IMG/VR virus record: IMGVR_UViG_3300045988_111115 | Location: 1 to 64,000 of that record | Strand: one strand, 5' to 3' | DNA length: 64,000 bases | From: a virus | Part shown: one piece after another, positions 1 through 59,931 of the stretch | How the letters are laid out: each line of letters starts with the position of its first letter | Numbering within the stretch: the first letter of the stretch is position 1 | Notes under the pieces: model-generated | Databases searched by the model: none | Seen by the model: only the letters and a program-made list of their open reading frames with translations | Told to the model about the DNA's origin: nothing | Made by a program: the position numbers and the translations under genes

Positions 1-56
1 TCTTTACTCTTCCCTACTCCCTACTCCCTACTCCCTACTCCCTACTCCCTACTCCT
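1..56. repeat. Tandem heptamer repeat (TCCCTAC/CCCTACT), about 7-8 units at the window edge, possibly a genome terminus
   Basis: Direct reading: tccctac repeated in tandem at 11-55, preceded by a degenerate copy. Confidence 0.8.
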
Positions 57-289
57 GAGGTGGTGGTACAAGTGTTGGTGAGTACACACAGTAGGTGGTG
101 TGGTACTTGGTGAAACCAAGTGTTAGAGGTAATTGGTGAGTAGCAGGAGAGCAGTATTTAGGGTGACAAAAGTACAGTATTCTTAGAGGAGAGGAATAGG
201 TGGTAGTACAGTACTTTTACACTAAGGGTAGGTACAGATTGGTAGGTTAGATTATGTTATACACTACTTTATATATCTCTATTATATGA

Positions 290-1400
290 AAGGTATAAAC
301 TCTGTTTGGAACTTTCAAAAGTACTGTACTTGAGTACTGTAATAGGTACATAAAAAGTACTGTACTTTTACGCCCAAAAGTACTGTATTTTAGGTCGAAA
401 AGTATTAACCACTTTAGAGGGTATTTTGACATCCTGAAAGTACTATGTTATAATTGTGTTATCAAATGATAAAGAAGCGAGGTAACTAAAATGAAGAACG
501 CATTGTATATAGTAAAGACACAAGATAACTGGTATCAATTACGTTGCTACCCTGAGCATATAGTTTTAGGGTGTGGTAAGTGTGTACAAGTACTACTGAA
601 CACTGCTAAAAGGTATGTACTAAGGTACAGAAAAAGCAGTAATTTTAAAAGGGCAGTAAGAAGTATGGAATACAACTATACTCTAAGAGAGGACGTAATG
701 ATTAGGAGACAGTACGAGTATGAACATAGAGATGAGTACTTGGACGGTTTATTACAGGACACTATCTCCTCCGCACTGATTAAAGTGAGGGAAGATACAC
801 CTTTAAAGAGAGTGAAGAAAAGGTTGGTTGGTATTAAACAAAGTACAGTACCTGTAGTAGAAAAGGTAGAACAAGAAGTAAAAAGTACACGTGGTCTAAA
901 GAGTACTATAAAGCTAAAGAGATTAAGTACAAAGTAAAGTACTATGCACTGTAAGAGTGAAGCCGTTTAAGTACTGTATAAGTACTGTATATCTGTTACA
1001 CCTGTAGAAGCATTTACACCCTGTATAAAGACCTATAGCAAGTACAGTACAAAGTACAAGAGTATTCAATCACTGATACAGTCACTAAGCGTTTAAAGCT
1101 AACATAAGTACAGTAGTACTAAAGTACTATAACATAACATAGAATACACTATAACAACACTGTAAGCCATTTTAAGCCGTCAATATTCAAAAGTACTGTA
1201 CATTACAGTACATCAATAATACTATATAACACGTTTTAGACCTGTTTATGACCGTTACAGACCTACTTTGAGCGTGTTACCCTGTAAATTAATACACTGT
1301 ATGCTCTGTATGTGCTACAGTGTATTTTTATTGTACAAGTTGTACAGTAAGTACAGTACTGAAATACTGTTGTATTGTATATAATGCTAAAACATATGAA
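290..1400. repeat. Dispersed array of at least 12 copies of the 9-11-nt motif (A)AAGTACTGTA(C) and its reverse complement
   Basis: Motif seen at about 318, 332, 353, 378, 968, 979, 1038, 1108, 1190, 1215, 1340, and also at 170 and 205. Confidence 0.7.
491..937 (+). CDS. Hypothetical basic (K/R-rich) early protein
   Basis: 148-aa ORF; no recognisable motif. Confidence 0.4.
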   Translation: MKNALYIVKTQDNWYQLRCYPEHIVLGCGKCVQVLLNTAKRYVLRYRKSSNFKRAVRSMEYNYTLREDVMIRRQYEYEHRDEYLDGLLQDTISSALIKVREDTPLKRVKKRLVGIKQSTVPVVEKVEQEVKSTRGLKSTIKLKRLSTK

Positions 1401-1426
1401 AAGCATAAAAAATATCGAAAAAAGTG

Positions 1427-1461
1427 TTGACTATTTCAAAAAATGTGCTATACTATAACCA
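1427..1461 (+). promoter_or_regulatory. Sigma-A-like promoter (TTGACT, 16 nt, TGcTATACT extended -10)
   Basis: gttgactatttcaaaaaatgtgctatactat read directly. Confidence 0.55.
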
Positions 1462-1986
1462 TAGACAACATAGAAACAAAAACATCAACGACAGCAACCA
1501 CTGTTATAGTTACGTCTATAAACAATGCACATTAGAAAACGCATAAGAAGTAGATTTGTTACGTCTACAGTATTAACAATAAGATAAGTTGACTGAGAAA
1601 AGCATTACACAGTTACTACAAGTACCATTAAAAGTGTTGTAGCAATGCTTAGCCGCTTTAAGTGTGCCGTAATAGCATAAACACCAGTAAATGACATACG
1701 GTAGCCAACCTGTAAGATTAGCAACCTGTACCACTACACAAAAGCAAGTACAGGATACGAAAACTCACAAGAAACTTGAAAAAATCTTTGTCACTCACTC
1801 TTAAAAATGAGTACAAAAGTGGCAGAGTGCATAGTGAATATGCACCCTGCACCATTTGTATGCAGTAATTATTGAGTGTATGGCACATTTAATAATTAGT
1901 GCGTACAAGCACTAAACAGTATGGCTATTACTACTAACCTGCTATACTGTATACTATTAAATCTAAGAGTGAGAAAGGAGTTCACT

Positions 1987-2415
1987 ATGAATACAGTAGA
2001 ACTAACACCAAAAACAAAGGCATTGACAGTTAAGAGCAAGGCTTTACTTGAAGTCAGTATGATGAACGGTCAAGTAACATTAGTAAACAATGAAAGTTTA
2101 AGACAGGTACTTCTGTACTGCTTACCTGCTCTAACAAAATTAGATGGCTATAATAGGTATGTAGACAGTGTTATAGATACAGTGTTTCATCGGTATAATC
2201 GCACGAACAAGGATAGAGAAGTTGTAGCAATCAGTTTCAATACTATTCAAGATATGGTGTGCTTGACCTTTATACTCAATGATGAGGAACAACCTTGTAC
2301 ACCTGCTCTATTAGAGAGTGGTACACCTGCATTCTGCTATGTACTTAATATAACAGAGAATTTGTTCTCAGAGTTCGGCTATTGTTACTTTGAACATTTT
2401 AAGCGTATAAGCTAA
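1987..2415 (+). CDS. Hypothetical early protein (ATG directly after the conserved leader motif)
   Basis: In-frame part of ORF 1921..2415. Leader AAGAGTGAGAAAGGAG at 1965-1980, 6 nt before the ATG. Confidence 0.55.
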   Translation: MNTVELTPKTKALTVKSKALLEVSMMNGQVTLVNNESLRQVLLYCLPALTKLDGYNRYVDSVIDTVFHRYNRTNKDREVVAISFNTIQDMVCLTFILNDEEQPCTPALLESGTPAFCYVLNITENLFSEFGYCYFEHFKRIS

Positions 2416-2651
2416 TGAATGAAAGGAAAATAGCAAGCACTATTGCAGATACACTTAATGTATTAGGTGTCAATCCTGCAAAAGTAGCTCAAGAACTAAC
2501 TAAGGAACATAAGTCCTTACAGAATACCTTTATGCAGGTCTGTTGTGAGTACATCAAGCAATGTGCAGGTGATAATTATAGCTTTGATGAACGAAACTAT
2601 TTTAACAAAACAGTAGCCTGTTATATTATTAAACAATGCCCCGAACTTTAA
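2415..2651 (+). CDS. Hypothetical small protein
   Basis: 78-aa ORF whose start overlaps the upstream stop (ATGA overlap). Confidence 0.4.
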   Translation: MNERKIASTIADTLNVLGVNPAKVAQELTKEHKSLQNTFMQVCCEYIKQCAGDNYSFDERNYFNKTVACYIIKQCPEL

Positions 2652-2751
2652 GTACTGAACAATAGGGTATGAGTGTTACTCGTACCCTATATTGAGTACC
2701 TAAGGTACTTAGATTTAAACACATACAAGAGTGAGAAAGGAGTTCATCATT

Positions 2752-3552
2752 ATGAACAAAAAGAACTTAACAAAGGCAGAGTTGAAAACAGTATTAGAGG
2801 GTTACGCAAATGTAGTTAAAGAAAAGTCTTTAAAAGACCGTATCAGCTACACTTTGAAGAAGTACAGCAATAGTACCAAGAAAACGGTACTTGACCTTAT
2901 ATCTGATATTGAAACTACGGTTGCACCACTACCTGTTGAAAATTCGGTAAAGAAGTTGCCTGCTAAAAAGACAAAGACTGAAAAAGCTACTGAACCTGAA
3001 GAAAAACCTGAGGAAAAGACAGCTAAGCCTGCACCTAAGAAGAATACTTCAAAAGGTAAGGCAAAACCAAAGCTATCTGCTCCGAAGAGTACTAAAGGTG
3101 CTACAGATAAGTCTGCTCCAATGGCGGCTATCTTCCCTGAGAAGATTGAAGATGAAAACATTGGCACGCTTGTAGCAGTACCTAACAAGTACCACACCAT
3201 AAAGGAACTTAGAGAAGCGATTGAAAGTGGTGAGAAAACTTTAGTAATCGGTGCGTACTTCCCTGTACCATTGATAAAGAAATATGGCTACTCAAACTTT
3301 AATGAAGCTAATGACCGAGTACCAAAGAAAGGTTTTGCTCACGACTTAGACCTACAGCAAGTTATCTACTGTTGTGAGGGTATAAATGCAGTATATGCTC
3401 TTTCGGACTATACAGAAGCAATGTTCGTGTATAGAGACCAAGAGTTAAAGCCTGAAAAAGTTAAAGACAGTACTACAGGTGATACAGTAGCTACACGCTT
3501 TGCCAACGGTTGTGAATTTGAACTTTATGAAGTCATTACCGAAGCAGAATAA
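2752..3552 (+). CDS. Hypothetical lysine-rich early protein (PAPKK-like basic repeats; possible DNA-binding)
   Basis: Leader motif at 2727-2742; ATG 2752. The ORF-track start at 2731 lies inside the RBS motif. Confidence 0.55.
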   Translation: MNKKNLTKAELKTVLEGYANVVKEKSLKDRISYTLKKYSNSTKKTVLDLISDIETTVAPLPVENSVKKLPAKKTKTEKATEPEEKPEEKTAKPAPKKNTSKGKAKPKLSAPKSTKGATDKSAPMAAIFPEKIEDENIGTLVAVPNKYHTIKELREAIESGEKTLVIGAYFPVPLIKKYGYSNFNEANDRVPKKGFAHDLDLQQVIYCCEGINAVYALSDYTEAMFVYRDQELKPEKVKDSTTGDTVATRFANGCEFELYEVITEAE

Positions 3553-3556
3553 GAGC

Positions 3557-3581
3557 CGAAACACCCCTTTTGGGGTGTCTG
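3557..3581 (+). terminator. Stem-loop aacacccc-tttt-ggggtgt, a terminator-like hairpin
   Basis: Perfect 7-8 bp GC-rich stem read directly; no strong U-run. Confidence 0.45.
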
Positions 3582-3661
3582 TATAAGCTGACTACTTATG
3601 CACTGATGATGGCAAGTCATTAGAACTACTAAAACAAAAGAGTGAGAAAGGAAGATACACT

Positions 3662-4138
3662 ATGACTAAAAAAACAGACACTAAAAGTCCGCTTGTAAGA
3701 CAACACATTGAAAAGGTTGTACTACAGTACAGAAACGGAAAAGTTAAGAACTATAACTTGTATAAGAAAGGTATTGGCTTTCCTGCTTTGACCTGCAAAG
3801 GTACAGTACTTCCATATTGGTACTTTAGTAACACTTTAGGTGCTAAGCTGAAAAGAGTACTTAATGGCATAACAAAAGTTACAGTAGGTAAGATTAATAC
3901 CTCTGTATCTGAATACTATACATTAATTTTTGCAGAGCTTAACAAACTACTTGAACAAGACAAGTGGTGGTATGATAGTTACAGTGAAAGAACAGCAAGA
4001 CTATGGGAAAGAGTAAGTAAGCTGTACAGAGAGGTACAAGAAGAGTACTTAGACGACTTGGAAATACCTGAATTGGTACAACACTTCTACAACCATATGC
4101 GACCTGCAAAACCCTTTTTTGATTGGTCGAAGAATTAA
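3662..4138 (+). CDS. Hypothetical early protein
   Basis: Leader motif 3638-3653; 158-aa ORF. Confidence 0.55.
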   Translation: MTKKTDTKSPLVRQHIEKVVLQYRNGKVKNYNLYKKGIGFPALTCKGTVLPYWYFSNTLGAKLKRVLNGITKVTVGKINTSVSEYYTLIFAELNKLLEQDKWWYDSYSERTARLWERVSKLYREVQEEYLDDLEIPELVQHFYNHMRPAKPFFDWSKN

Positions 4139-4236
4139 GTATTGCAACACAGGGTATAAGTACAGTACTTGTACCTTGTATGGAGTATTTAATACTTCAA
4201 GAAAAACATACACTAAGAGTGAGAAAGGAACATATT

Positions 4237-4662
4237 ATGAGTAAAGATGGAATTAAGCTAAGTAAAAAATACGGAGTAAACCCAACTATACCAATCTGTT
4301 TTTGGTGTGGTGAACACAAGAACGAAATAGCTTTATGCGGTCATATTGGTAACTACAGAAAAGGCGAAGACTTTGAAGCACCAAAGAACTGCATACTTGA
4401 CTATGAGCCTTGTGACAAGTGCAAAGAAACTTGGGATAAAGGCGTCGTATTGATAGAGGTAGACACCAAACCACAAGCGGAGGGTCAGCTCCCTATACAA
4501 GACCCTTACTATCCCACAGGCAGATACGTAGTAATGGAAAAGTCCTCTGCTGAAAAGACTTTTAAACCTGAAGTACTTGAAAAGGGACTACTACTTGTAC
4601 CTCAAGAGGTATTTGAACAGATAGTACCTCAAGAGGATAAAGACACCAAAGACAACGAATAG
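4237..4662 (+). CDS. Hypothetical Cys/His-rich (zinc-finger-like) early protein
   Basis: Leader motif 4215-4230; ATG 4237; CFWCGEHKNEIALCGH and CDKC clusters. Confidence 0.55.
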   Translation: MSKDGIKLSKKYGVNPTIPICFWCGEHKNEIALCGHIGNYRKGEDFEAPKNCILDYEPCDKCKETWDKGVVLIEVDTKPQAEGQLPIQDPYYPTGRYVVMEKSSAEKTFKPEVLEKGLLLVPQEVFEQIVPQEDKDTKDNE

Positions 4663-4857
4663 GTCGTATACTGTTAGAGTGTATTACTGAATAGGTAGTA
4701 CACTTTATAGAGTATAAGACTTTAGTAGTGGGTCTGTACTCAATCCGTTAAATATTTTGAGCAGGGTACTAACGACCTCACTCAGTTAGTACCTTGAACA
4801 AAGTACTTAACGGTACTTTGGAACTACTATACTTAAGAGTGAGAAAGGAGAAACACT

Positions 4858-5178
4858 ATGAAAATTATAAGACCTAAGAAATTGGTACAACCACCTGTAG
4901 AGGAGAAGCCAAAGCAAAGAGTGGTAGATGATGATAGCTACCCTGACTTATTAGAGAAAAAGGAATTAGTACTTGGAGATACTAATAAGTTAGTGTTTAG
5001 TGTAGCAAGGGGAGGAGAATATGGTCTCCCTATGATAGACATTAGGCACTACACCGATACAAGTAAGTATTCAGGTCCTACTAAGAAAGGTATTAGACTA
5101 CCACTTGAAATGCTCTATGACTTCTTGGAAATACTTGAGGAAATTGATACCGAGTGTGACGAAAATGGAATTGAGTGA
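4858..5178 (+). CDS. Hypothetical early protein
   Basis: Leader motif 4835-4850; 106-aa ORF. Confidence 0.55.
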   Translation: MKIIRPKKLVQPPVEEKPKQRVVDDDSYPDLLEKKELVLGDTNKLVFSVARGGEYGLPMIDIRHYTDTSKYSGPTKKGIRLPLEMLYDFLEILEEIDTECDENGIE

Positions 5179-5508
5179 TAAGGAATTTAATGAGTACCCT
5201 CTGACTGTAAAAGGTTGGAGGGTCTTATTTTTTTGTCCTGAGATACTATGGTATTTTAGGTCTACACACTGTACAGTAAGTAACTATGGTTGGTAATGAA
5301 TAGCTACAGTAGTGGTGAGAAGTACATAGGTTTTGGAGGCTTAACACTTGATATAATCAGTATCTTGGCATTATATATGATTTTCATAAAATTCTATAAA
5401 AACTATTGACAAGTAGTATCGTATGTGATACAGTCTATACAGTAAATGAGCGACAACACATTTACAGTCATAACACTACTAACTGAAAAATGAGAAAGTG
5501 AGAAACAA

Positions 5509-5698: not shown

Positions 5699-7224
5699 TT
5701 ACTTATAAGTTGGATAGTGACTACTCAGTACATAGAGGTATTGAGGTGTTACTCAGATACTTCTCACTGAGGTTATACTGACTTGGGTAATGGTGGGTAG
5801 TACTTCTGCTCTCTGATATAGTGCTATGGTTTGGCTTTGACAAAAAAGGTTGGTCTTTCTGAAATAGACATAAGCAAGATACCTTAGGGAGGTACACTAC
5901 TGTATTAGTGGCACTATGTAGCTTTTGGTGAGAATAGCGACTAAAGGGAGGTCAAGGCTATTACTAAGGTACTATAGACCTATATAGCTACTGAGGTAAA
6001 GATGATTGGCTCTACCAAAGTTACTGCCCTATTCCGAAAGGTAGAGGTGATTTGATGGGCATTTCAACAAAAGTCCAAATAAACTAATATGCTAAAGACT
6101 TCACAGATTTTCAAGTGACTTTGCTAAAATGCAACTTTTGGGTTAAAATTCCCAAAAAGCCGAAAATTCACAATATTTTAGGTCACATTAGGTCACACAA
6201 TGCTCCTATTTGAGGTCTCAAAAAGTTATATAATCTTAGTATAAGCATTACTAATAGACATATATAGGTCTTTCATAATATAGGGCATTTTAAGTGTTTT
6301 CGCCTTACTAATTCGGAAAATTTTAAGCCTTTTTTCAAGTGTACTATTTTAAGCCCTTAAAAATCAAAATAAGCACTTTTGTTATTGCATTTGCTTTAAA
6401 TACTTCAACTACTTTAAACATCACATAATAAATGCAGTCAAGCATAAATAACAAATTATTCCTTGATTTGTGAATGAAATAACTTAAATATTGCATTGAT
6501 TTTCTTTCTTTTGTATTTGTTCTTTGTGTTCTTCGCTTTCATTCTTTAACTTCTTTCTTTCCTGCTTTTGTTCTTCAAACAAAACTTGAAACTTAAATTC
6601 AATTTTGAAATTTTTATAAACTAAAACTAAGATTTTCAGTGAGTAGTAAAACTACTTTATGTTTGTATACAATTCACATAACAATACTTGATGTTTGCCT
6701 TGCTTTGTACTTGTTCACAACAACTTCAAAATTAAAACTAAAATTTATTTTCTTTGTCGCACTTGCAAACTTCTTATTTTAGGTTATACAATGAATAACT
6801 TATGTAAAAAAATTGCATATAATCAAAACAGACCCCACCCTTAAACCGCCTTACTTTAGTCCGCCTGCTGAGCCACACACCATAATATTGGTGATAAAAT
6901 TGAGGGTAGGAGTGTACCATAAAATACAGTACTGTACAGAGGTTGCGTTGTGCAAAAGGCGAGTAAGCGTGGTGTAAAAATATTCTCGGTGTATAAAAAC
7001 AGAGGTGTAAGTGTACCATAATTAAAAAAGAGTGTATAAAGACCTAAGGAAAGTGCCCTGAGAAGAGCAGAAACAGTTCTAAAAGACGGAATAAGTAAGA
7101 AAAGCTAAATTTACACTACTAAGCACTATGGATAGCATAAAAGACCTGAAAAGACCTAAAGAGAATATACTAAAATGCTAAGAATTTAAGCAGAAAGTTT
7201 TAAGTGCAAGGGTGCTTGCACTAT

Positions 7225-7250
7225 GAGTATATACCTTTAGGTATATACGA
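7225..7250. promoter_or_regulatory. 21-bp perfect palindrome GTATATACC-TTT-GGTATATAC (operator-like), copy 1
   Basis: 26-mer identical to 48438-48463; followed by an AT-rich tract and TGtTATAAT at about 7352-7360. Confidence 0.6.
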
Positions 7251-7392
7251 ATATAATTATATATAATATATTATAATATAGTTAATATTACACATCTAAG
7301 TGAAAAATGGAGGCGGTGTCCAATTTGCAATAGTGCTTTGACAGTGTTATAATGTAGCTACACCAAATGAAGAGAAAGTGAGGTATATAAAA

Positions 7393-10366: not shown

Positions 10367-10907
10367 TGAGATATACCGTCATTGTTCAGGGTCTTTTTAT
10401 ACAGTACTTGCAGTATCAAGTTTGAGGGTAAGTAACACAGAGAGCAGAGATATAGTGGTACTAAAGAAGTTATCAGCTAAAGGCGAAGTAGTTACATATT
10501 ACATAGAGGACTTCTTAGCAGAGATAAGTGACACTTTAGCAGATATGTTGGGTCAGAAGTTTAAGTTTGTACAAGTAAAGGACGCTTGCTTTAGCCTTGC
10601 AGAGACTACCACAGAAGCACTTGTACAGGAGTTAAAGTCACGCACTGATAACCCTTATGCTAAAGAGGAAGACCCAAAAGTAATTGAAGTACGTTATGAG
10701 ATAGGAGTTTATCGTCCTTACCCTAAAAAACAGAAAGAGCGTAAAGGACAGTATTACTTTGATAGCTTCTTATCCTTTGACACTAAAGAGGAAGCTATTA
10801 CACATATCAAAAACTACTTTCATAATAATGGGCAGATAGTAATTGCAAGAGTAACAAGAGCAGAGGAGACATCTGTTAGGGAGTTAATTGACAGTACTCT
10901 AATGTAG
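10350..10907 (+). CDS. Hypothetical protein
   Basis: ORF 10326..10907. ATG 10350 preferred because of the GAGGAGAG RBS 8 nt upstream. Confidence 0.5.
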   Translation: MQIRVNEIYRHCSGSFYTVLAVSSLRVSNTESRDIVVLKKLSAKGEVVTYYIEDFLAEISDTLADMLGQKFKFVQVKDACFSLAETTTEALVQELKSRTDNPYAKEEDPKVIEVRYEIGVYRPYPKKQKERKGQYYFDSFLSFDTKEEAITHIKNYFHNNGQIVIARVTRAEETSVRELIDSTLM

Positions 10908-10972
10908 TGCTATAATGCAGACAACACATAATGCAATGTATAACTAAAGCGTATTAGAAAGGAGAATTTAAC

Positions 10973-12079
10973 GTGAGAAGAATTAATAGTGTAGGAGGTG
11001 CTGTTCCAAGAGTACCTGAGGGAACTTTAATAATGCCACATAACCCTCAGTGTTTAGACACTCTTTGGGGAGATGCACTTGATATTCAAATGAAGTGTAA
11101 AGATGTTATAATTGAAGACAGTGGCAATTCTAATCGCTTCTGTTTTTCGTGGTATGTAAATTCAAATGGAGACTTTGTAAAGAGTTTAGACTTTGTTCCT
11201 GATGATGTAATTACTTTAGGAACACCTGTAGATGATAATTATTGTGACGAAGTACACAGAGCATACCTAACTAAATGGTCTTTCGGACAGTTATGTAACA
11301 AAGCAGGAGTACCTACGAGATATATGGATAAGTGTATAAATTCAGGTCTACAACACCTTGTACCTGCTAATATCAATGACTTCTTGATATTTCAGAATAA
11401 AAAATTACTTATCCGTTTGTACAATGACGAAGTAAGAGGTATTCTCGGAAGTAAGTATGTAACTCTTGATACACCTGATATAATTCAGGTAGTTGCACAG
11501 TCACAGTTCCTAAGTGGAGCTAATATAAAAGGTTATGTACTTGACCCAACAAGATTGCACTTACGTTTAGTAATGAATGAGCCTTTAACAGTACAGGGAG
11601 AAGATTTATTCCCTGGTGTTGCTATTACAAGTTCAGATGTCGGTAAGAGTAGCTTAAGAGTACAATTTTTTGTGTATAAAGAAGTATGTACTAATGGACT
11701 TATGTTACCTATTTCGCAGTCTTTAGTCTTTGAGCAGAAGCACATAGGTATAGCTATTGATGAGTTTGCAAGGGACTTAAAAGATAATTTGAGCCAATGT
11801 TCTAAGTATGCCTCTAATGTAAGTGAGAGAATAGGTAAGTTAAAATTTGAGCAAGGACTTAGCCGTAAAGAGTTATCACACCTGTTAAAAATGGGTGCAG
11901 ATAAGACCTTGTTTTCTGAACAAGCTATTGAGGAAGTACTTGACTTGTCTTACTGCAACTACTCACCTACACAGTGGGGTCTGATAAATGCTATAACACA
12001 GTATGCTCAAAGGTTTACTATTGAAAGACGTGTACAGTTTGAAGAGTTTGCAGGTAATTTATTGTATCGAGATATTTGA
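10973..12079 (+). CDS. Hypothetical 368-aa protein, no recognisable motif
   Basis: GTG start after an AAAGGAG RBS. Confidence 0.5.
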   Translation: MRRINSVGGAVPRVPEGTLIMPHNPQCLDTLWGDALDIQMKCKDVIIEDSGNSNRFCFSWYVNSNGDFVKSLDFVPDDVITLGTPVDDNYCDEVHRAYLTKWSFGQLCNKAGVPTRYMDKCINSGLQHLVPANINDFLIFQNKKLLIRLYNDEVRGILGSKYVTLDTPDIIQVVAQSQFLSGANIKGYVLDPTRLHLRLVMNEPLTVQGEDLFPGVAITSSDVGKSSLRVQFFVYKEVCTNGLMLPISQSLVFEQKHIGIAIDEFARDLKDNLSQCSKYASNVSERIGKLKFEQGLSRKELSHLLKMGADKTLFSEQAIEEVLDLSYCNYSPTQWGLINAITQYAQRFTIERRVQFEEFAGNLLYRDI

Positions 12080-12136
12080 CGTTTGAGGTAGTCTGTTATA
12101 TAATTAGTACATAAAACGAGTAAAGGAGAAATGCTT

Positions 12137-12490
12137 ATGCAAGAACAACTATATAACAGACTTATTTCAGATTTAAAAAAGTTGGGTATTCCTTTGAACT
12201 TTGAATTAGAAGTAAAGCCATATAGTAAAAGTTACTATGGGAGATATAACCCTAACACAAATAAGATAACGGTTTATGCCTATGAGGACAAGAACTGTAC
12301 AAGAGTATATTCCTATGATAGTCTTTTGGATACAGTGATACACGAATTTACACATTATATACAGTACACTAACCCAAACTATAAGCGTGTTAAAGGCATA
12401 ATGCACGACAGTAACTTTTGGGTGCTGTGCAACTACTTTAAAGACAGAATAAAGAGTATTAAACTATGGGAGGAGTTGAAAGCAAGTTGA
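12137..12490 (+). CDS. Small putative zinc metallopeptidase-like protein (HEFTH = HExxH motif)
   Basis: VIHEFTHY motif. ATG 12137 has AAAGGAG 9 nt upstream; the ORF-track start is 12131. Confidence 0.45.
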   Translation: MQEQLYNRLISDLKKLGIPLNFELEVKPYSKSYYGRYNPNTNKITVYAYEDKNCTRVYSYDSLLDTVIHEFTHYIQYTNPNYKRVKGIMHDSNFWVLCNYFKDRIKSIKLWEELKAS

Positions 12491-12711
12491 GAAGAGAGTT
12501 TGTAGAGGTAAAAGAAAACCGCTTCTTTAAAGTACTAAACTATATACTTAGTATAGTAGTAGCTTTTATAGGGGTGTTCACTTGCATTACTACTTTCGGA
12601 GCAGTAATTTTAGTGCTTATATCACTATGTCAGCAAGATATGGTAGGTGCTTTGATGTATTCTTTAGTAAGTCTATCTGCAAGTATAATAAACAAATTCA
12701 TATATTCATAG
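12466..12711 (+). CDS. Small membrane protein (two hydrophobic segments)
   Basis: 81-aa ORF with hydrophobic stretches. Confidence 0.4.
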   Translation: MGGVESKLRREFVEVKENRFFKVLNYILSIVVAFIGVFTCITTFGAVILVLISLCQQDMVGALMYSLVSLSASIINKFIYS

Positions 12712-15814: not shown

Positions 15815-16680
15815 GGAAGATTATACCCTTAGTCAATAACCTAAGTAAGCTTTATATCCTTAATGAAGAGGGTGTACCTTGTTTTGTACACTCTAAGGAA
15901 TACCCTAATGTTGCAACACAACCAATAGTGCCACGCTTCAATGGTTATACCTGTGTTGAAGACTATATGAAAGATGATATAAAATACATAGTACCTATGA
16001 CCGCAAAAGAGATTGAAAGCAAGGAAGAGCAGTTAGAAAAGTTGCAGAGTAAAGACTTCTATGTTGAAGAAAAGTTTGACGGTACAAGAGGTATAATGCA
16101 CTTTTATACTTGTGACCCAAAAACACTTAGAGAAAAGTACTACCCGAACTATAAGGAAGATGAAAAGCAGTATCTAAGTGTATGCCTGTTACAAGGAAGC
16201 TCGATTGTAGACGGTAAACGCAGAATTTATGACTACTTTCTGACACACTCTAAGTCTAAGGATAGAGTAGACTTTTTAAAGCAAGAGTATGGTATAGGAG
16301 GGTATACAGGTTATCCCATATCTTGTAGCTTTAACAGTAAAGGTTTTACTATAGATATGCCAAGTGACAAAGAGATAAATGGACGTTATAGTAAAAGCAT
16401 AACTTACACGTGGAAAACTATTGCCGAAGAGATACAACACCTGATAGATATAAAGCACTACTATGCACAAAAGGGTTATACAAGAGTGTTCAGTAGACGT
16501 GAAAGCAAAAAGACAGGTTGGCTCACTGAGAATACAGATAGTGTACCACAGCTAAGAGATTTAAACCGACCTGAACTTGCAGGTACTATAATTGATGGTG
16601 AGATGTTTATACCTAATCAACCTTTTAAAGCTGTAGCAAGTACCCTAAACTGTAAGTGGGTAACTAAACTGTTACAATAA
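15808..16680 (+). CDS. ATP-dependent DNA ligase, 5' exon or N-terminal fragment (motif I KFDGTRG, motif IV IIDGEM). The frame stops at the insertion boundary
   Basis: EEKFDGTRG is the KxDGxR adenylation motif and DGEMF is motif IV. Motifs V and VI are absent here and found in ORF 19216..20232. Confidence 0.8.
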   Translation: MLRKIIPLVNNLSKLYILNEEGVPCFVHSKEYPNVATQPIVPRFNGYTCVEDYMKDDIKYIVPMTAKEIESKEEQLEKLQSKDFYVEEKFDGTRGIMHFYTCDPKTLREKYYPNYKEDEKQYLSVCLLQGSSIVDGKRRIYDYFLTHSKSKDRVDFLKQEYGIGGYTGYPISCSFNSKGFTIDMPSDKEINGRYSKSITYTWKTIAEEIQHLIDIKHYYAQKGYTRVFSRRESKKTGWLTENTDSVPQLRDLNRPELAGTIIDGEMFIPNQPFKAVASTLNCKWVTKLLQ

Positions 16681-17200
16681 ATATAAACAAATCTGCACAA
16701 ATTTGTGCAGTGGTATAGATTTTATTAAGCAGAAAGCCCTTTGTATCGAGAAATCGGTGCAAACTCAGTGTTAATTGCTTTTAATCCCTAAAGCCTTACA
16801 CCTAAACAGTAATCCGAAAGGATAAACTGAACGGTACGAAAGTAGAAAAAACGTAAGGATGGCATATGGTGAAATAAAAGTACCTCAGTGTTAATGATAG
16901 GACAGATAATTTCTGACGTGACACATTAAAAACGGGTATCCTAAGTGCTTAAGCAATGGGTGTTTAGCAGCGAAAGCCCTAAGTCTTTTTATAAGATATG
17001 GGACACGTTCAACGACTATCTCCTTGAGGGAGAGTAAAACCACAAGCTAATGGTGGAAGAAAAATACTGCCCCACACTACTATGTGGGTGAAGATATAGT
17101 CTACGCTTATGTGAAAGCATAAGAGGTCTGTCGGTAACGATAAGACTGCTATAAGGTTGCGACTTATAGTGAATGAGATAAATATATACATATTTAATTT
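16681..17200 (+). ncRNA. Group I intron catalytic core (P4: aattgctttt 16773-84 with aagcaat 16951-57; R gttcaacgactat 17007-19; P8 hairpin 17071-88; S aagatatagtct 17091-102)
   Basis: Matches R consensus GUUCA.GACUA and S consensus AAGAUAUAGUCY; P7 gacta:tagtc; 18-nt perfect palindrome 16693-16710. Confidence 0.65.
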
Positions 17201-17261
17201 ATTTATATAAATCTATTGACAACAATATAAAATTATGATACCATAGATATATAAAAATAAT

Positions 17262-17897
17262 ATGGTGGTGAATTTTATGGAATTGTTAAGCATAGGTAAA
17301 TTTGCTAAAACTGTAGGAGTAACTACGACAACATTAAGAAGAATGCATCAAAGTGGCGAGTTAATTCCTGCACATATTTCAAATGGTGGAACAAGGTATT
17401 ATTCTACGGAACAATTAAAATTATTCCAATCAAGTAATAATGAAAGAATAGTTATTGGTTATTGTAGAGTAAGTACTCCATCACAAAAAGACGATTTAGA
17501 AACACAAGTACAAAATGTTAAATCATATATGTATGCTAAGGGATATAAATTTGACATTATAAAAGACATTGGTTCGGGTATAAATTATAAAAAGAAAGGT
17601 TTAAAAGAACTCATTAATAGGATAGAAAATAATGAAGTTTCTAAAGTTGTAATTTTATATAAAGATAGGTTGATTCGATTTGGATTTGAATTAATTGAAT
17701 ATTTGTGTGAAATTAATAACGTAGAAATAGAAGTTATAGACAATTCGGAATGTAGTAAAGAGAAAGAATTAACAGATGATTTAATTCAAATTATTACAGT
17801 TTTTGCGAATAGATTGTATGGACAACGTTCAAAGAAAACAAAACGACTTATTAATGAGGTGAGAAACAATGCTGATAACAAAGAAAATCAGACTTAA
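17262..17897 (+). CDS. tnpA: IS607-family TnpA: serine recombinase with an N-terminal MerR-like HTH
   Basis: LSIGKFAKTVGVTTTTLRR HTH; IGYCRVSTPSQKDD catalytic Ser motif; alternative start 17277; upstream TTGACA at 17215. Confidence 0.8.
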   Translation: MVVNFMELLSIGKFAKTVGVTTTTLRRMHQSGELIPAHISNGGTRYYSTEQLKLFQSSNNERIVIGYCRVSTPSQKDDLETQVQNVKSYMYAKGYKFDIIKDIGSGINYKKKGLKELINRIENNEVSKVVILYKDRLIRFGFELIEYLCEINNVEIEVIDNSECSKEKELTDDLIQIITVFANRLYGQRSKKTKRLINEVRNNADNKENQT

Positions 17898-19047
17898 ACC
17901 GACAACTGAACAAGAAATATTATTTCGTAAAAGTGCTGGTGTATCGAGATGGGCATATAATTTCTTTTTAGGTGAGAATGAACGAATATACAGAGAGTAT
18001 ATTGACAATGGAAAAGTTGGTAAGAAAAGCATTAGCGAAGGTGATGTTAGGAAATACATAAATAATATATTAAAACCAACTACTCATTCTTGGCTCAAAG
18101 AAGTTGGAAGTAATGTAATGAAACAAGGTGTTAAAGATGCCAGTCTTGCATTGCAAAGATATTTTAAAGGCTTGTCTGGAAAGCCCAAATTTAAGTCCAA
18201 ACATAAAGACAGACCGAGTTTTTATGTCAATTATGAAAGTCTTTCAAGAAAACAAGGTGGTTTTCAAGGAGAAAAAATAGGCTTTGTAAAAACATCGGAG
18301 GCACTTCCTAAACTAAATAAAAATGAAAAATATTCAAATCCAAGAATAACGTTTGACGGAAAATATTGGTATCTATCTGTTGGCTATGAAGTGCAAGAAA
18401 GCACAGTGGAATTAACAGACGAAAGTTTAGGAATAGATTTAGGAGTTAAAGATTTAGCAATTTGTTCAAACGGAAAGGTTTATAAAAATATAAACAAAAC
18501 TCAAAGAGTTAAAAAGTTAGAGAAGAAACTAAAACGTGAACAGCGAAAATTATCAAGGAAGATTGAAAATAATATTCAATCATATAAATCAAATAGAAAC
18601 CCTATATACAAAAGACCTTTGAAAGAATGTCAAAACATTCAAAAACAAAATCGTCTAATACGAAATATACATAGAAAACTTGCAAATATTCGTCAAAACC
18701 ATTTACATCAAACAACGACAGAGATAGTGAAAACCAAACCATCTCGAATAGTTATGGAAAGTTTAAATGTAAGTGGAATGATGAAAAATAAACATTTATC
18801 AAAAGCAATACAACAACAAAAATTTTATGAATTCAAAAGACAAATTGAATATAAGTCAAAACTAAATGGGATTGAATTCATTCAAGTTGATAAGTTTTAT
18901 CCAAGTAGTAAAACTTGTAGTTGTTGTGGAAATATCAAGAAAGATTTAAAACTTTCGGACAGAATGTATAAATGTGATGTTTGTGGTCTGGTTATTGACC
19001 GAGATTACAATGCAAGTATAAATTTAGCAAATTATGAAGTTATATAA
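17869..19047 (+). CDS. tnpB: TnpB (OrfB) RNA-guided nuclease; RuvC-I/II/III acidic residues and C-terminal zinc finger present
   Basis: GIDLGVKD (D), VMESLN (E), CSCCG...CDVCGLVIDRDYNASINLA (D plus Zn finger); 29-nt overlap with tnpA. Confidence 0.85.
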   Translation: MLITKKIRLKPTTEQEILFRKSAGVSRWAYNFFLGENERIYREYIDNGKVGKKSISEGDVRKYINNILKPTTHSWLKEVGSNVMKQGVKDASLALQRYFKGLSGKPKFKSKHKDRPSFYVNYESLSRKQGGFQGEKIGFVKTSEALPKLNKNEKYSNPRITFDGKYWYLSVGYEVQESTVELTDESLGIDLGVKDLAICSNGKVYKNINKTQRVKKLEKKLKREQRKLSRKIENNIQSYKSNRNPIYKRPLKECQNIQKQNRLIRNIHRKLANIRQNHLHQTTTEIVKTKPSRIVMESLNVSGMMKNKHLSKAIQQQKFYEFKRQIEYKSKLNGIEFIQVDKFYPSSKTCSCCGNIKKDLKLSDRMYKCDVCGLVIDRDYNASINLANYEVI

Positions 19048-47314: not shown

Positions 47315-47324
47315 GGTGTTTAGT

Positions 47325-48164: not shown

Positions 48165-48206
48165 TTATCAAAAATTCTAAAAGTAAAATGTATATCTATA
48201 TCTCAA

Positions 48207-48250
48207 TACCCCTAATAAGTCCAAAAAATGACCTTAGGGGTATTTTATTT
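48207..48250 (+). terminator. Rho-independent terminator (tacccctaa...ttaggggta plus TTTTATTTT)
   Basis: 9-bp stem read directly after the endolysin. Confidence 0.55.
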
Positions 48251-48437
48251 TGCTTCCCTTTAATTTATACCCCTAAAGAGGAATTTGTGTTTTAGAACTG
48301 ATTTTGAGTGTTTAAAGTCAATTTATTAAATTTTGCTGATTTTAATAAATTAGCCAAGAGAAATGACGGTGTTTAGAAGTTTTGAACAGTTTTAGTGAAA
48401 GTGCGGTGACGAACGAAGTGAGGAGTTCGCACTACAA

Positions 48438-48463
48438 GAGTATATACCTTTAGGTATATACGA
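48438..48463. promoter_or_regulatory. 21-bp perfect palindrome GTATATACC-TTT-GGTATATAC (copy 2)
   Basis: Identical 26-mer to 7225-7250; followed by an AT-rich tract. Confidence 0.6.
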
Positions 48464-48558
48464 TTGAATATTATATAATATAATAAATATATATATATAA
48501 TTAATATTAAATGTGTAATTCAAGATTACGCACACACGAGTATTAAGAAAGGAGAGTT

Positions 48559-48587
48559 TTGACAGAACTTTTGACGTATGATATACT
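48559..48587 (+). promoter_or_regulatory. Sigma-A-like promoter TTGACA-17-TATACT
   Basis: ttgacagaacttttgacgtatgatatact read directly. Confidence 0.55.
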
Positions 48588-50749: not shown

Positions 50750-51106
50750 ATGCCAAAGGTAAAGACCTCAGTAAAGCTACCTACAGGAGAAGTACTTGAA
50801 TTATACTATGTAAAGACTTTTGCTGACATTATAGGTAGAAGTACACAGACTATCAAGAAGTGGCATAGAGAAAACATTATACCTGATACATTTTTTCACG
50901 ACAAAGACGGTAGTAAACTTTATTCACGAGAGATGATGAATGTGGTAAAAAAAGCTATGGGAATATCCAAAGCTACAAGAGGAAGACGTTTAGACCTATC
51001 TCCGTTTAGTCCTACAGTCTACAGAGAGTGGGAGAAGTTAAAGCTAAAATACACAGGTAAGTACAATCCACAAGTACCTAAGAATTTTCAGAAAAGGAGA
51101 AGTTAA
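50750..51106 (+). CDS. Putative HTH DNA-binding protein
   Basis: YVKTFADIIGRSTQTIKKWHREN helix-turn-helix-like. Confidence 0.45.
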   Translation: MPKVKTSVKLPTGEVLELYYVKTFADIIGRSTQTIKKWHRENIIPDTFFHDKDGSKLYSREMMNVVKKAMGISKATRGRRLDLSPFSPTVYREWEKLKLKYTGKYNPQVPKNFQKRRS

Positions 51107-57229: not shown

Positions 57230-57247
57230 TTTGATAAAATAAGGCAT

Positions 57248-59712: not shown

Positions 59713-59931
59713 GTGAAAACGGCAAGAACGACTATTGAGACCAGTGTTACACTTATGGAAGAAGTCAAGAAGAAAGCTAATTCTAATAGTGAAAACATTG
59801 GAGACTTTATCACAAGAGCCTTGCTTAATCAACTTGAAGCTGAGGGTGATTTTGAAATTAGAGAAGAAGTGGAGGAAGAACTAAATGGCAGTTGTGAAAA
59901 GAAAATCAGTAACCAAAAAAGCAGAGCCTAA
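59713..59931 (+). CDS. Ribbon-helix-helix (CopG/Arc-like) DNA-binding protein (GTG start)
   Basis: N-terminal beta-strand TTIETSVTLMEEVKKKA followed by two helices. Confidence 0.45.
   Translation: MKTARTTIETSVTLMEEVKKKANSNSENIGDFITRALLNQLEAEGDFEIREEVEEELNGSCEKKISNQKSRA

What the first reader, a model, noticed from the sequence alone, without database searches (positions are those of the whole stretch)
7225..7250. Identical 21-bp perfect palindrome at two module boundaries (7225-7250 and 48438-48463)
GAGTATATACCTTTAGGTATATACGA occurs twice, exactly identical. Its core GTATATACC-TTT-GGTATATAC is a perfect 9-bp-arm palindrome. Each copy is followed by a 60-80-nt AT-rich tract and then a promoter and the first gene of a rightward module (middle genes at 7393; replication module at 48623). 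Each copy is also preceded by a GC-rich hairpin. This is the signature of a dimeric repressor or activator operator that coordinately switches two transcription units. Which protein binds it is unknown; the RHH protein (59713..59931) and the HTH protein (50750..51106) are candidates.
Basis: seen in the sequence. Interest (0 to 1): 0.6.

Follow-up and report, generated by a model that had tools for sequence, protein, structure and literature searches.

The report
Twin hairpin-plus-AT-tract boundary elements
The repeated 26-mer is real, but relatives show it is the conserved core of a hairpin-forming DNA element next to the two easiest-to-melt stretches of this phage genome, so it looks more like an unwinding or priming signal than a repressor-binding site.

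Summary
GAGTATATACCTTTAGGTATATACGA occurs exactly twice, at 7225-7250 and 48438-48463. The core is 9-bp arms plus a 4-nt TTTA loop, so 22 bp rather than 21. It is not part of a longer duplication.

Each copy belongs to the same layout: a GC hairpin, then this AT-rich hairpin, then a 44-59 nt almost pure A/T tract, then a sigma-70-type promoter. The promoters head the middle-gene block and the replication block.

Relatives carry the same layout at both positions, but with different palindromes whose changes are always compensated.
- Loop length varies from 3 to 5 nt.
- Stem bodies are A/T only, and the loop-closing pairs are always C-G.
- The closer relatives keep direct (non-symmetric) GA..GA flanks. 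These form a tandem G.A internal loop above a co-varying lower helix.
- Hairpin 1 usually carries a GNA or GNNA mini-hairpin motif.
- The two A/T tracts are the least stable duplexes in the 64 kb window.

In the two relatives where both sites could be read, the palindromes at the two sites differ. The A=B identity is therefore specific to this phage lineage and is probably gene conversion.

Best reading: extrudable DNA hairpins flanking an unwinding element, acting as an origin or priming-type signal (confidence 0.38). A symmetric operator, an RNA element and a PeSL-like terminator-promoter cassette remain as rivals.

The parts
7180..7198 (+). Conserved block AAGAATTTAAGCAGAAAGT just upstream of hairpin 1 at site A
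   Evidence: Aligned and conserved in the window, R74 (L147) and R68 (L149). It lies inside the only strongly conserved island of the 2.2-kb noncoding region. On the minus strand it reads as a U-rich tail after hairpin 1; this was flagged terminator-like only in R68.
7203..7222 (+). Hairpin 1 at site A: AGTGCAAG-GGTG-CTTGCACT
   Evidence: Predicted with both RNA and DNA parameters. The stem base AGTGC/GCACT is conserved in R74 and R68, while the interior varies (AAG/CTT, AA/TT, or a 12-nt loop with GCGGAGCGAAGC).
7225..7250 (+). Copy A of the 26-mer. Hairpin 2 core is 7227-7248 (GTATATACC-TTTA-GGTATATAC), with direct GA flanks at 7225-7226 and 7249-7250
   Evidence: The 26-mer is identical in relative R74 at 74% helicase identity (L147), and identical apart from one extra loop base in R68 (L149). 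Covariation was counted.
7249..7292 (.). A/T tract A (at least 95% A+T)
   Evidence: It is the second least stable 40-bp and 60-bp duplex in the whole window (z 5.7 and 5.2).
7325..7353 (+). Sigma-70-type promoter of the middle-gene block: TTGCAA-17-TATAAT with TG (extended -10)
   Evidence: It is conserved in R74, R68 and L026. The first gene starts at 7393 (ATG) or 7378 (GTG).
48206..48251 (+). Canonical terminator of the late operon after the endolysin gene: ATACCCCTAA...TTAGGGGTAT followed by a T-run
   Evidence: Read directly from the sequence. The scan tool does not list it because the loop is 18 nt. Endolysin is at 47253-48164. It shows the palindrome is not needed to end the late operon.
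48401..48433 (+). Hairpin 1 at site B: outer stem GTGC../..GCAC, inner stem GAAC/GTTC, purine-rich loop GAAGTGAGGA containing ACGAAGT
   Evidence: The loop sequence GAACGAAGTGAGG is conserved in R74 inside a different stem (GCAGAG/CTCTGC).
48438..48463 (+). Copy B of the 26-mer. Hairpin 2 core is 48440-48461. The lower helix pairs 48435-48437 (CAA) with 48464-48466 (TTG) across the GA/GA internal loop
   Evidence: The orthologous hairpin differs in R74, R68 and R62, with fully compensated changes.
48462..48520 (.). A/T tract B (at least 95% A+T), with a (TA)n run that is polymorphic between strains
   Evidence: It is the least stable 40-bp and 60-bp duplex in the window (z 6.1 and 5.6). L054 has one more TA unit.
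48512..48535 (.). Conserved inverted repeat TGTGTAATTCAAGATTACGCACAC between the A/T tract and the -35 hexamer. This is a better-placed candidate operator for the replication-block promoter
   Evidence: TGTAATTCAAGATTACGC is conserved in the window and R74, and in R62 with one base fewer in the spacer. The operator function is inferred only.
48559..48587 (+). Sigma-70-type promoter of the replication block: TTGACA-17-TATACT with TG
   Evidence: The SF2 helicase gene is at 48623-50185.

Best explanation
The 26-mer is the core of hairpin 2 in a conserved composite DNA element. The order is hairpin 1 (GC stem, usually with a C-GNA-G or GNNA apex), hairpin 2 (A/T-only stem, C-G loop clamp, tandem G.A internal loop, short lower helix), a 44-59 nt almost pure A/T tract, and then a strong host-type promoter reading away from the tract.

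Proposed mechanism (inferred):
- The A/T tract is a DNA-unwinding element.
- It opens under negative supercoiling, which the adjacent promoter would generate behind RNA polymerase, and/or through an initiator protein.
- Once it opens, the neighbouring inverted repeats fold into stable single-strand hairpins.
- These hairpins serve as a loading or priming signal for the phage's own DnaB, DnaC-like and DnaG-type proteins and its SSB.
- On this reading there are two origin-type sites, one at the head of the middle/late block and one at the head of the replication block.

Shown: the anatomy, its conservation, the compensatory evolution, the strand asymmetry and the extreme meltability.
Inferred: hairpin extrusion in vivo and any role in replication.

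The exact A=B identity in this phage most likely reflects gene conversion of site B by site A, not a requirement for one shared operator.
For: 1. The same layout occurs upstream of the helicase gene in every relative down to 45% helicase identity except the GC-richer L046, and upstream of the middle block in L026 and L030. L028 keeps the A/T tract without a palindrome. Each phage has its own palindrome.
2. Eleven distinct hairpin-2 sequences were collected. Both loop-proximal pairs are C-G (one A-T exception at position 2), and positions 3-8 are A/T in 62 of 66 pairs. This design is easy to melt as a duplex yet nucleates a hairpin, which is the opposite of an intrinsic terminator.
3. RNAalifold finds compensatory double changes in 8 of 11 pairs. 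Direct GA..GA flanks are conserved at 7 sites with 5 different stems. The lower helix co-varies (AT/AT, CAA/TTG, and 7 bp in R68_B).
4. GNA/GNNA mini-hairpin motifs (GCGAAGC, GCGGAGC, GCGTAGC, GCGAAAGC, ACGAAGT, GCGTTAGC twice) recur next to the A/T tract. Exact GCGAAGC or GCGAAAGC occurs at 4 sites within about 60 nt upstream of hairpin 2, against a rough expectation of about 0.04 from the background rate in 302 kb. Such DNA mini-hairpins are described at the primase origins of G4, St-1 and alpha3, at RSF1010 ssiA and at N4 promoters (PMC13037366).
5. The two A/T tracts are the two least stable 40-bp and 60-bp duplexes of the window.
6. The element keeps its layout whether it lies before the late-operon terminator (subclade 2) or after it (the window subclade). 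No conserved promoter lies upstream of it. Its function therefore does not obviously depend on being transcribed.
7. At site A the hairpin block is the only strongly conserved island in 2.2 kb of noncoding DNA: 89% over 74 nt against R74 and 86% over 105 nt against R68.
8. The phage encodes a DnaC-like loader, a DnaB-like helicase, a DnaG-like primase, an SSB-like protein, a family-A polymerase and a UvsX-like recombinase.
Against: - There is no experimental evidence of origin activity.
- GC skew is uninformative because all genes share one strand.
- Iteron-like direct repeats occur in only some relatives (L020 four copies, L030 three copies) and not in the window.
- There are no DnaA boxes nearby.
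- The window's site A hairpin 1 has a GGTG loop, not a GNA apex.
- Most hairpin-2 loops are TTTA, which is not a mini-hairpin loop.
- GUAA and GAAA loops and one G.T pair in R68_B hairpin 1 would also suit RNA.
- A/T-only stems could partly reflect local mutational bias.
- The relatives are phylogenetically related, so the counts are not independent.
- A/T-rich DNA upstream of strong promoters can also act simply as an UP or curvature element.
Confidence: 0.38

Rival explanations
1. The dyad is a duplex operator bound by a dimeric phage (or host) regulator that represses or activates the two downstream promoters together.
For: The core has perfect dyad symmetry and is exactly identical at two promoter-upstream positions in this phage and its 99% strain. 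Compensated changes in both arms are also what an operator co-evolving with its dimer would show. The two dyad centres differ in distance to the inferred starts by about 22 bp, roughly two helical turns.
Against: A and B palindromes differ within R74. Within R68 they share arms but with spacings 4 bp apart. Palindromes are single-copy in their contig in three IMG/VR relative lineages. Loop length varies from 3 to 5 nt. The centre (CC-loop-GG) is the conserved part while the arms vary, which is the reverse of typical operators. The flanks are direct GA..GA, not symmetric. The site lies 76-97 nt upstream of the -35 hexamer in the window and further in several relatives; in subclade 2 a terminator sits in between. 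A (TA)n polymorphism alters the phasing. No DNA-binding family was detected for the proposed binders.
Confidence: 0.18
2. The element acts as RNA on the + strand. The tandem hairpins would be a 3'-end, stability or processing signal for upstream transcripts, or an insulating terminator paired with the downstream promoter (a PeSL-like terminator-promoter cassette). Alternatively they are a nut/put-like antitermination signal at the head of two long operons.
For: The features are strand-specific: the TTTA loop is never TAAA, the purine-rich loops lie on the + strand, and there is a tandem G.A motif. Some loops are GUAA or GAAA, and R68_B hairpin 1 has one G.U-compatible pair. In subclade 2 the hairpins start 3-25 nt after the stop codon of the last late gene. 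The order stem-loop, A/T-rich region, sigma-70 promoter, SD matches the PeSL description (PMC4122927). The RNA folds have z-scores of -3.7 to -4.9.
Against: Neither window site, nor the hairpins in R74_A or L015, is flagged as a terminator on the + strand. The stem base is A/T and the tail has only 4-6 U in 10 nt, whereas this phage's real terminators have GC stems and T-runs. In the window subclade the element lies about 190 nt downstream of a canonical terminator. No conserved promoter lies upstream of it. Stem changes are mostly AT to TA flips rather than transitions via G.U, and the maximal perfect stems contain no G.U pair. No Rfam family matches.
Confidence: 0.2
3. A tiny RNA is made on the minus strand. 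A leftward promoter inside the A/T tract would start at the dyad, and the transcript (hairpin 2, then hairpin 1) would end at the U-rich complement of the conserved upstream block.
For: A minus-strand promoter-like site TTAACT-18-TATAAT (7285..7256) would start transcription at the edge of copy A. In R68_A the minus-strand hairpin 1 followed by CTTTTCTGCT is flagged terminator-like. The block upstream of hairpin 1 is conserved at A sites.
Against: No comparable minus-strand promoter is listed at copy B or in R74_A. -10-like hexamers are unavoidable in pure A/T DNA. The minus-strand tails are U-poor at W_B, R62_B and L015_B (read directly). In subclade 2 the tail would run into the upstream gene.
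Confidence: 0.07
4. The exact A=B identity has no function of its own. Two anciently paralogous hairpins were homogenised by a short gene-conversion or recombination event in this lineage. This view is compatible with any function for the hairpins themselves.
For: The site A sequence is conserved in the window, R74 and R68, whereas site B differs in R74, R68 and R62. A single A-to-B conversion in the window lineage is the most parsimonious account. Site B in the window is mosaic: the hairpin-1 interior is B-type (GAACGAAGTGAGG, as in R74_B), but its outer stem (GTGC/GCAC, then ACTA) and hairpin 2 are A-type. The phage encodes a UvsX-like recombinase and a Holliday-junction resolvase.
Against: Both copies and their identity are kept in the 99% strain, though that divergence is too small to be informative. 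An ancestral identity retained only in this phage cannot be excluded with three genomes.
Confidence: 0.5

Closest known systems
PeSL (promoter-early stem-loop) composite terminator-promoter cassettes of T4-like phages (PMC4122927, PMC2839356)
   Same: The order of parts is the same: a stem-loop, a generally A/T-rich region, a sigma-70-type promoter, then the Shine-Dalgarno sequence and start of the next gene. Both are repeated within a genome at gene or module boundaries.
   Different: PeSLs are compact and occur in many copies in hyperplastic regions. Their stems are GC-rich and terminator-like. Here there are two copies and two tandem hairpins. The A/T-only stem has a C-G clamp at the loop, followed by a 44-59 nt pure A/T tract. 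There are no terminator features on the + strand.
Single-strand initiation signals and origins built on DNA mini-hairpins: the complementary-strand origins of G4, St-1 and alpha3, and RSF1010 oriV with ssiA/ssiB beside an A/T-rich region and iterons (PMC13037366; RSF1010 oriV layout from established knowledge)
   Same: Both have hairpins with GNA or GNNA loops closed by C-G, including exact GCGAAGC, GCGAAAGC and GCGTTAGC, next to an easily melted A/T tract. The genome encodes its own primase, helicase and SSB, and some relatives have iteron-like repeats.
   Different: No initiator, priming or origin activity has been shown. The window's hairpin 2 has a TTTA loop, and its site A hairpin 1 has a GGTG loop. 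G4-type signals act on ssDNA genomes, whereas this is a dsDNA myophage.
Phage genomes with two or more related origins or promoter-coupled unwinding elements: SPP1 oriL/oriR, T4 oriF/oriG, the T7 primary origin (established knowledge, not tested here)
   Same: More than one origin-type site per genome shares sequence elements. An A/T-rich unwinding element is coupled to a nearby promoter.
   Different: In T4 and T7 the promoter fires into the A/T-rich element, whereas here it fires away from it. SPP1 origins are defined by initiator boxes, and none has been identified here.
Lambda nutL/nutR boxB and HK022 putL/putR RNA hairpins (established knowledge)
   Same: Both are near-identical hairpin elements present twice per genome, each at the head of a long operon. 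The put sites are two-hairpin elements. The loops are recognised in a strand-specific way.
   Different: nut and put sites lie downstream of their promoters, inside the transcript. Here the hairpins lie 76-97 nt upstream of the only clear promoter, and no conserved promoter lies upstream of them.
Palindromic operators of dimeric phage repressors or activators
   Same: The core is a perfect dyad located upstream of promoters.
   Different: The spacer is variable, the flanks are asymmetric, the centre is conserved while the arms vary, the distance to the promoter is large and variable, and A differs from B within relatives.

Membership tests
Duplex operator of a dimeric regulator | Dyad-symmetric half-sites | tested here: met
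   The 9-bp arms are perfectly complementary.
Duplex operator of a dimeric regulator | Constant half-site spacing and symmetric flanks at all sites bound by the same protein | tested here: not met
   Loops are 3, 4 or 5 nt. R68 sites A and B share arms but differ in spacing by 4 bp. The flanks are direct GA..GA.
Duplex operator of a dimeric regulator | Overlap with, or fixed phasing to, the regulated promoter | tested here: not met
   The dyad centre lies about 122 and 144 bp upstream of the inferred starts. The distance to the -35 hexamer is variable and longer in several relatives, with a terminator in between in subclade 2. A (TA)n polymorphism changes the spacing.
Duplex operator of a dimeric regulator | An identifiable cognate DNA-binding protein | tested here: inconclusive
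   The ORF at 59713-59931 has only a sub-threshold DUF6290 hit (20.4 bits against a cut-off of 27). The ORF at 50750-51106 has no Pfam hit. Many small ORFs lack any family.
Intrinsic (rho-independent) terminator | GC-rich stem base immediately followed by a U-tract | tested here: not met
   The scans do not list the hairpins on the + strand at the window sites, in R74_A or in L015. The stem base is A/T and the tails have 4-6 U in 10 nt (read).
PeSL-type stem-loop/promoter cassette | Stem-loop, then an A/T-rich region, then a sigma-70 promoter and SD of the next gene | tested here: met
   compared with the description in PMC4122927.
PeSL-type stem-loop/promoter cassette | Many conserved copies per genome, clustered in plastic regions and associated with indels | tested here: not met
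   There are only two copies in the 64 kb window and no third palindrome-plus-A/T-tract site.
ssDNA initiation signal or origin with DNA mini-hairpins | Hairpin with a GNA/GNNA loop closed by C-G | tested here: inconclusive
   Present at most sites across the clade, and at window site B as ACGAAGT. Absent from the window's site A hairpin 1 (GGTG loop) and from hairpin 2 (TTTA loop).
ssDNA initiation signal or origin with DNA mini-hairpins | Adjacent DNA-unwinding element | tested here: met
   The two tracts are the least stable 40-bp and 60-bp duplexes of the window.
ssDNA initiation signal or origin with DNA mini-hairpins | Initiator-binding repeats (iterons) or DnaA boxes | tested here: inconclusive
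   Direct repeats occur in L020 (four copies of 18 bp) and L030 (three copies of 15 bp) but not in the window. There are no DnaA boxes near either site.
ssDNA initiation signal or origin with DNA mini-hairpins | Demonstrated priming or origin activity | not testable with these tools
   This needs marker-frequency analysis, 2D gels or in vitro primase assays.
nut/put-type antitermination RNA | Located within the transcript, downstream of the promoter it modifies | tested here: not met
   The hairpins lie upstream of the only clear promoters. There is no conserved upstream promoter in the window, R74 or R68.
Any curated RNA family (Rfam 15) | Match to a covariance model | tested here: not met
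   There is no hit at either site at gathering threshold or at E up to 5.
Serine-invertase crossover site (hix/gix-like 26-bp dyad) | Fixed 12+2+12 geometry and a cognate recombinase | tested here: not met
   The centre is 4 nt and varies from 3 to 5 nt in relatives. The only serine recombinase-like gene lies in an IS that is absent from the sister strain, which still has both copies.

The most novel reading that the evidence does not exclude
An uncultured clade of low-GC myophages, distantly related to Bacillus phage BCD7, uses two transcription-activated origin-type sites. Each would be built from extrudable DNA hairpins (a GNA/GNNA mini-hairpin apex and a tandem G.A internal loop) abutting the most meltable tract of the genome. 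If so, primase or helicase-loading signals of the kind known from ssDNA phages and RSF1010 have been adopted by a large dsDNA phage. The hairpin sequences evolve quickly by compensated changes and are occasionally homogenised between the two sites.
Probability: 0.28. Interest if true: 0.6.

Novelty: new variant of a known kind. Interest (0 to 1): 0.45.

Why it matters
Origins and regulatory boundary elements are almost unknown for uncultured phages, because they carry no protein homology. This case gives a concrete sequence signature that can be searched for: tandem hairpins, a C-G loop clamp, an A/T-only stem, GA/GA flanks, and a pure A/T tract followed by a promoter. The signature is conserved down to 45% helicase identity at two genome positions.

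If it marks origins, it would allow origin prediction in this clade. It would also link DNA mini-hairpin priming signals to large dsDNA phages. If instead it is regulatory, it defines the switch points between the early, middle/late and replication blocks.

The comparison also cautions against a common inference. Exact repetition of a palindrome within one genome need not mean a shared operator. Here the relatives show the identity is lineage-specific.

Tried and rejected
- **Segmental duplication:** rejected. The flanks are not significantly similar.
- **Close cultured relatives:** none in INPHARED. BCD7 shares the endolysin-holin-helicase synteny but has only a 175-bp gap with no such element.
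- **Second copies in relatives:** exact searches for each relative's own palindrome found single copies only.
- **Degenerate pattern CCTTTAGG..ATTATATAATAT:** it mostly returned unrelated terminator/promoter pairs.
- **The same 22-mer in other contigs:** L004, L050-L052 and a hit inside a coding region of a MAG (L150) show no protein or DNA relatedness to the window. I treated them as chance or convergent A/T-rich palindromes.
- **Rfam:** nothing, at either gathering or relaxed thresholds.
- **DnaA boxes:** not enriched and none nearby.
- **A GACCT/AGGTC motif** seen upstream of several sites is common throughout coding DNA, so I dropped it.
- **tRNAs:** none.
- **Candidate binders:** Pfam and PHROGs gave no DNA-binding family.
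- **Protein-alignment search to pair A and B sites in IMG/VR contigs:** it returned essentially the same loci. Pairing succeeded only for R74 and R68, through exact-protein look-ups.
- **Not done:** no covariance model was built, because a simple palindrome-plus-A/T scan already showed no third site in the window.
Full report
**1. Observation**

The 26-mer GAGTATATACCTTTAGGTATATACGA is present at 7225-7250 and 48438-48463. A search allowing up to 3 mismatches finds nothing else in the window, and 100 dinucleotide shuffles gave none. The dyad is GTATATACC-TTTA-GGTATATAC: 9-bp arms and a 4-nt loop, so 22 bp rather than 21.

Each copy is preceded by a GC-rich hairpin (7203-7222; 48401-48433). Each is followed by a tract of at least 95% A+T (7249-7292; 48462-48520) and then a sigma-70-type promoter with an extended -10. 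These promoters are TTGCAA-17-TATAAT at 7325-7353 and TTGACA-17-TATACT at 48559-48587.

The flanks outside the 26-mer are not significantly similar. Upstream, 43 of 300 composition-preserving shuffles reach the observed score; downstream, 7 of 300 do.

**2. Context**

All genes run on the + strand.
- 426-5223 is a block of small genes behind a perfect-consensus promoter, ending at a strong terminator.
- 5700-7200 is noncoding. Copy A lies at its right edge, in front of the block that runs through the virion and lysis genes.
- Copy B lies between the endolysin gene (47253-48164) and an SF2 helicase gene (48623-50185). The endolysin gene has its own canonical terminator at 48206-48251.
- The helicase gene opens a replication block: a DnaC-like loader, a DnaB-like helicase, a DnaG-like primase, an SSB-like protein, a family-A polymerase, a UvsX-like recombinase and a resolvase.

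The phage has no close relative in the phage collection. Its best cultured relative is Bacillus phage BCD7, at 35% helicase identity. BCD7 shares the synteny but lacks the element.

**3. Relatives**

Helicase relatives at 45-49% identity from IMG/VR (L013-L020, L045) and from public assemblies (L151, L152, L153) all carry the same layout upstream of the helicase promoter. The GC-richer L046 is the one exception. The layout is one or more hairpins, an A/T-rich dyad topped by CC-loop-GG, and a long pure A/T tract that often contains ATATTATATAATAT. Each phage has its own dyad:
- ATAAAAATCC-TTTA-GGATTTTTAT
- TAAATACCC-TTTA-GGGTATTTA
- ATTATCCC-GTA-GGGATAAT
- ATTATTCC-TAT-GGAATAAT
- ATTCCC-TAT-GGGAAT
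- ATTACC-TTTA-GGTAAT
- CTAAAGGC-GTTA-GCCTTTAG

.

The same layout precedes the middle block in other relatives. L026 has ACATACC-TTTA-GGTATGT, and L030 has a GC hairpin plus an A/T tract. L028 keeps only the A/T tract, without a palindrome. The right-hand motifs differ between the two positions: TAGTTACAGAAC-type at A and ATTAGGT../TGTAATTCAAGATTACGC-type at B. A and B are therefore old, distinct modules that share an architecture.

**4. Paired sites in closer relatives**

Three closer relatives were recovered through exact-protein look-ups. I call them R74, R68 and R62 after their helicase identity to the window.

| Phage | Site A | Site B |
|---|---|---|
| Window | GAGTATATACC-TTTA-GGTATATACGA | identical to A |
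| R74 (one 79-kb contig) | identical to the window 26-mer | GAGTATTATCC-TTTA-GGATAATACGA (three fully compensated pair changes) |
| R68 | GAGTATATACC-TTTAT-GGTATATACGA (one extra loop base) | CTTTATATAC-GTA-GTATATAAAG |
| R62 | not recovered | GAGTAATACC-GTAA-GGTATTACGA |

In R68 the two sites share the arms TATATAC/GTATATA, but with 7 nt between them at A and 3 nt at B.

Site A is therefore conserved across three phages. It is the only strongly conserved island in 2.2 kb of noncoding DNA, at 89% over 74 nt and 86% over 105 nt. Site B evolves quickly.

The A=B identity is special to the window phage and its 99% strain. Site B in the window is a mosaic: a B-type hairpin-1 interior (GAACGAAGTGAGG, as in R74) inside A-type outer sequences. 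Gene conversion of B by A is the most economical account. This is an inference.

**5. Duplex operator or folded strand?**

Several features argue for selection on a folded single strand rather than on a symmetric protein site.
- *Geometry varies.* Arms are 6-10 bp and loops 3-5 nt. The conserved part is the centre: both loop-proximal pairs are C-G, with a single A-T exception at the second pair. The arms vary.
- *Stem composition.* The stem body is A/T in 62 of 66 pairs. Changes are mainly AT-to-TA flips. This keeps the duplex easy to melt while keeping the hairpin.
- *Asymmetric flanks.* In the window subclade the flanks are direct GA..GA at 7 sites with 5 different stems. Beyond them a lower helix continues and co-varies: AT/AT at A, CAA/TTG at B, and seven pairs ATTAAAA/TTTTAAT in R68_B. 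RNAalifold and the DNA folds both recover this 2x2 internal loop. A GA/GA interruption means nothing in duplex DNA, but it is a classical tandem G.A motif in a folded strand.
- *Hairpin 1.* Its stems differ between sites, while its purine-rich apex is conserved. That apex repeatedly contains GNA or GNNA loops closed by C-G: GCGAAGC, GCGGAGC, GCGTAGC, GCGAAAGC, ACGAAGT, and GCGTTAGC twice in L153. Exact GCGAAGC or GCGAAAGC occurs at 4 sites within about 60 nt upstream of hairpin 2, against a rough expectation of about 0.04 from the background rate in 302 kb.
- *Distance to the promoter.* It is 76-97 nt in the window and clearly longer in several relatives. In subclade 2 a canonical terminator lies between the element and the promoter. 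A (TA)n polymorphism exists between strains.

**6. DNA or RNA?**

The evidence favours DNA, though not decisively.

For DNA:
- The element keeps its layout whether it lies upstream of the late-operon terminator (subclade 2) or about 190 nt downstream of it (the window subclade).
- No conserved promoter lies upstream of it.
- It lacks terminator features on the + strand. The scans do not list it at the window sites, in R74_A or in L015. The stem base is A/T and the tails are U-poor.
- The two A/T tracts are the two least stable 40-bp and 60-bp duplexes of the entire window (z 6.1 and 5.7).
- GCGNAGC and GCGNNAGC are the 'mini-hairpin DNA' motifs. They are reported at the primase-dependent origins of G4, St-1 and alpha3, in RSF1010 ssiA, and in N4 hairpin promoters (PMC13037366).
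- A/T-rich flanks are known to promote cruciform extrusion. This last point rests on established knowledge and was not tested here.

For RNA:
- Some loops are GUAA or GAAA.
- Hairpin 1 of R68_B has one G.U-compatible pair.
- In subclade 2 the hairpins sit immediately after a stop codon.
- The part order matches T4-type PeSL cassettes (PMC4122927).

No Rfam family matches.

**7. Mechanism**

I commit to the following reading at 0.38 confidence. The element is an unwinding site whose opening lets the adjacent inverted repeats fold into stable hairpins, which then act as a loading or priming signal for the phage replication proteins. The opening would be driven by negative supercoiling behind the strong promoter that fires away from the tract, and/or by an unidentified initiator. 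On this reading the phage has two origin-type sites.

Shown: the anatomy, conservation, covariation, asymmetry and meltability. Inferred: extrusion in vivo and any replication role.

Rivals:
- a duplex operator (0.18);
- a + strand RNA element or PeSL-like insulator (0.20);
- a tiny minus-strand RNA (0.07).

Independently, I put 0.5 on the A=B identity being a by-product of gene conversion.

**8. Verdict**

It is a new variant of known kinds of element (composite hairpin/promoter boundary cassettes, or hairpin-plus-unwinding-element origins) in an uncultured phage clade. Interest is moderate, at 0.45.

Noticed in passing
window 16661-19235: A 2.6-kb IS607-family-like insertion splits the phage DNA ligase gene. 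It carries a MerR-like/serine-recombinase-like ORF (17262-17897), a TnpB-like ORF (17869-19047) and a RAGATH-18 RNA hit (19102-19163; 73.5 bits). Its GC content is 0.295. The 99% sister strain L053 has an uninterrupted ORF (10639-12513) across the empty site ...ctgtaagtgg|gataaagc..., and R74 has an intact 591-aa ligase.
   Followed up: partly
window 11-59: There is a tandem heptamer repeat (TCCCTAC), about 7 copies, at the very start of the window. It lies about 370 nt upstream of a perfect-consensus promoter at 426-454. It may be a genome-end or terminal-repeat feature.
   Followed up: no
window 5700-7200: This roughly 1.5-kb stretch has no convincing ORF and lies between the early block and copy A. 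Relatives have a comparable noncoding stretch (L026 2960-3860; L147 2702-4407; L149 5826-7182), but only the hairpin block and window 6833-6903 (CCCCACCCTTAAA region, 76% to R68) are alignable. There is also a cluster of AGGTC motifs at 5949-6266.
   Followed up: partly
window 48512-48535: The inverted repeat TGTGTAATTCAAGATTACGCACAC lies about 25-45 nt upstream of the -35 hexamer of the helicase promoter. It is conserved in R74 and R62. It is better placed than the 26-mer to be the operator of that promoter.
   Followed up: no
window 1963-1996, 2725-2758, 3620-3652, 4213-4246: The leader AAGAGTGAGAAAGGA(G), which includes the Shine-Dalgarno sequence, is repeated in front of several early genes. 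The same GTGAGAAAGGAG leader is seen in relative L026.
   Followed up: no
L004 8025-8046; L051 (four hits, two per strand, in an inverted duplication); L050; L052 3632-3653: The identical 22-mer GTATATACCTTTAGGTATATAC occurs in contigs unrelated to the window. In L050 and L051 it lies inside arrays of hairpins with CC-TTTA-GG tops. In L052 it is the centre of a dyad with arms of about 27 bp. There is no protein or DNA similarity to the window beyond the motif.
   Followed up: partly
window 48486-48500 versus L054: There is a (TA)n length polymorphism in the A/T tract after copy B between the window and the 99% strain: L054 has one more TA unit.
   Followed up: no
window 57241-57279: An 18-pair A/T-rich hairpin (AAGGCATATGTGTTATTATAATGATAGCACATATGCTTT) spans the start codon of the DNA polymerase gene (57248). 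The scan flagged it as terminator-like.
   Followed up: no
L020 about 5790-5870; L030 about 4520-4565: Iteron-like direct repeats lie between the A/T tract and the promoter in some relatives: four copies of an 18-bp unit (CACATAATTTCAATTAGG) in L020 and three copies of a 15-bp unit (TTACAGAACTAATGA) in L030. They are absent from the window.
   Followed up: no
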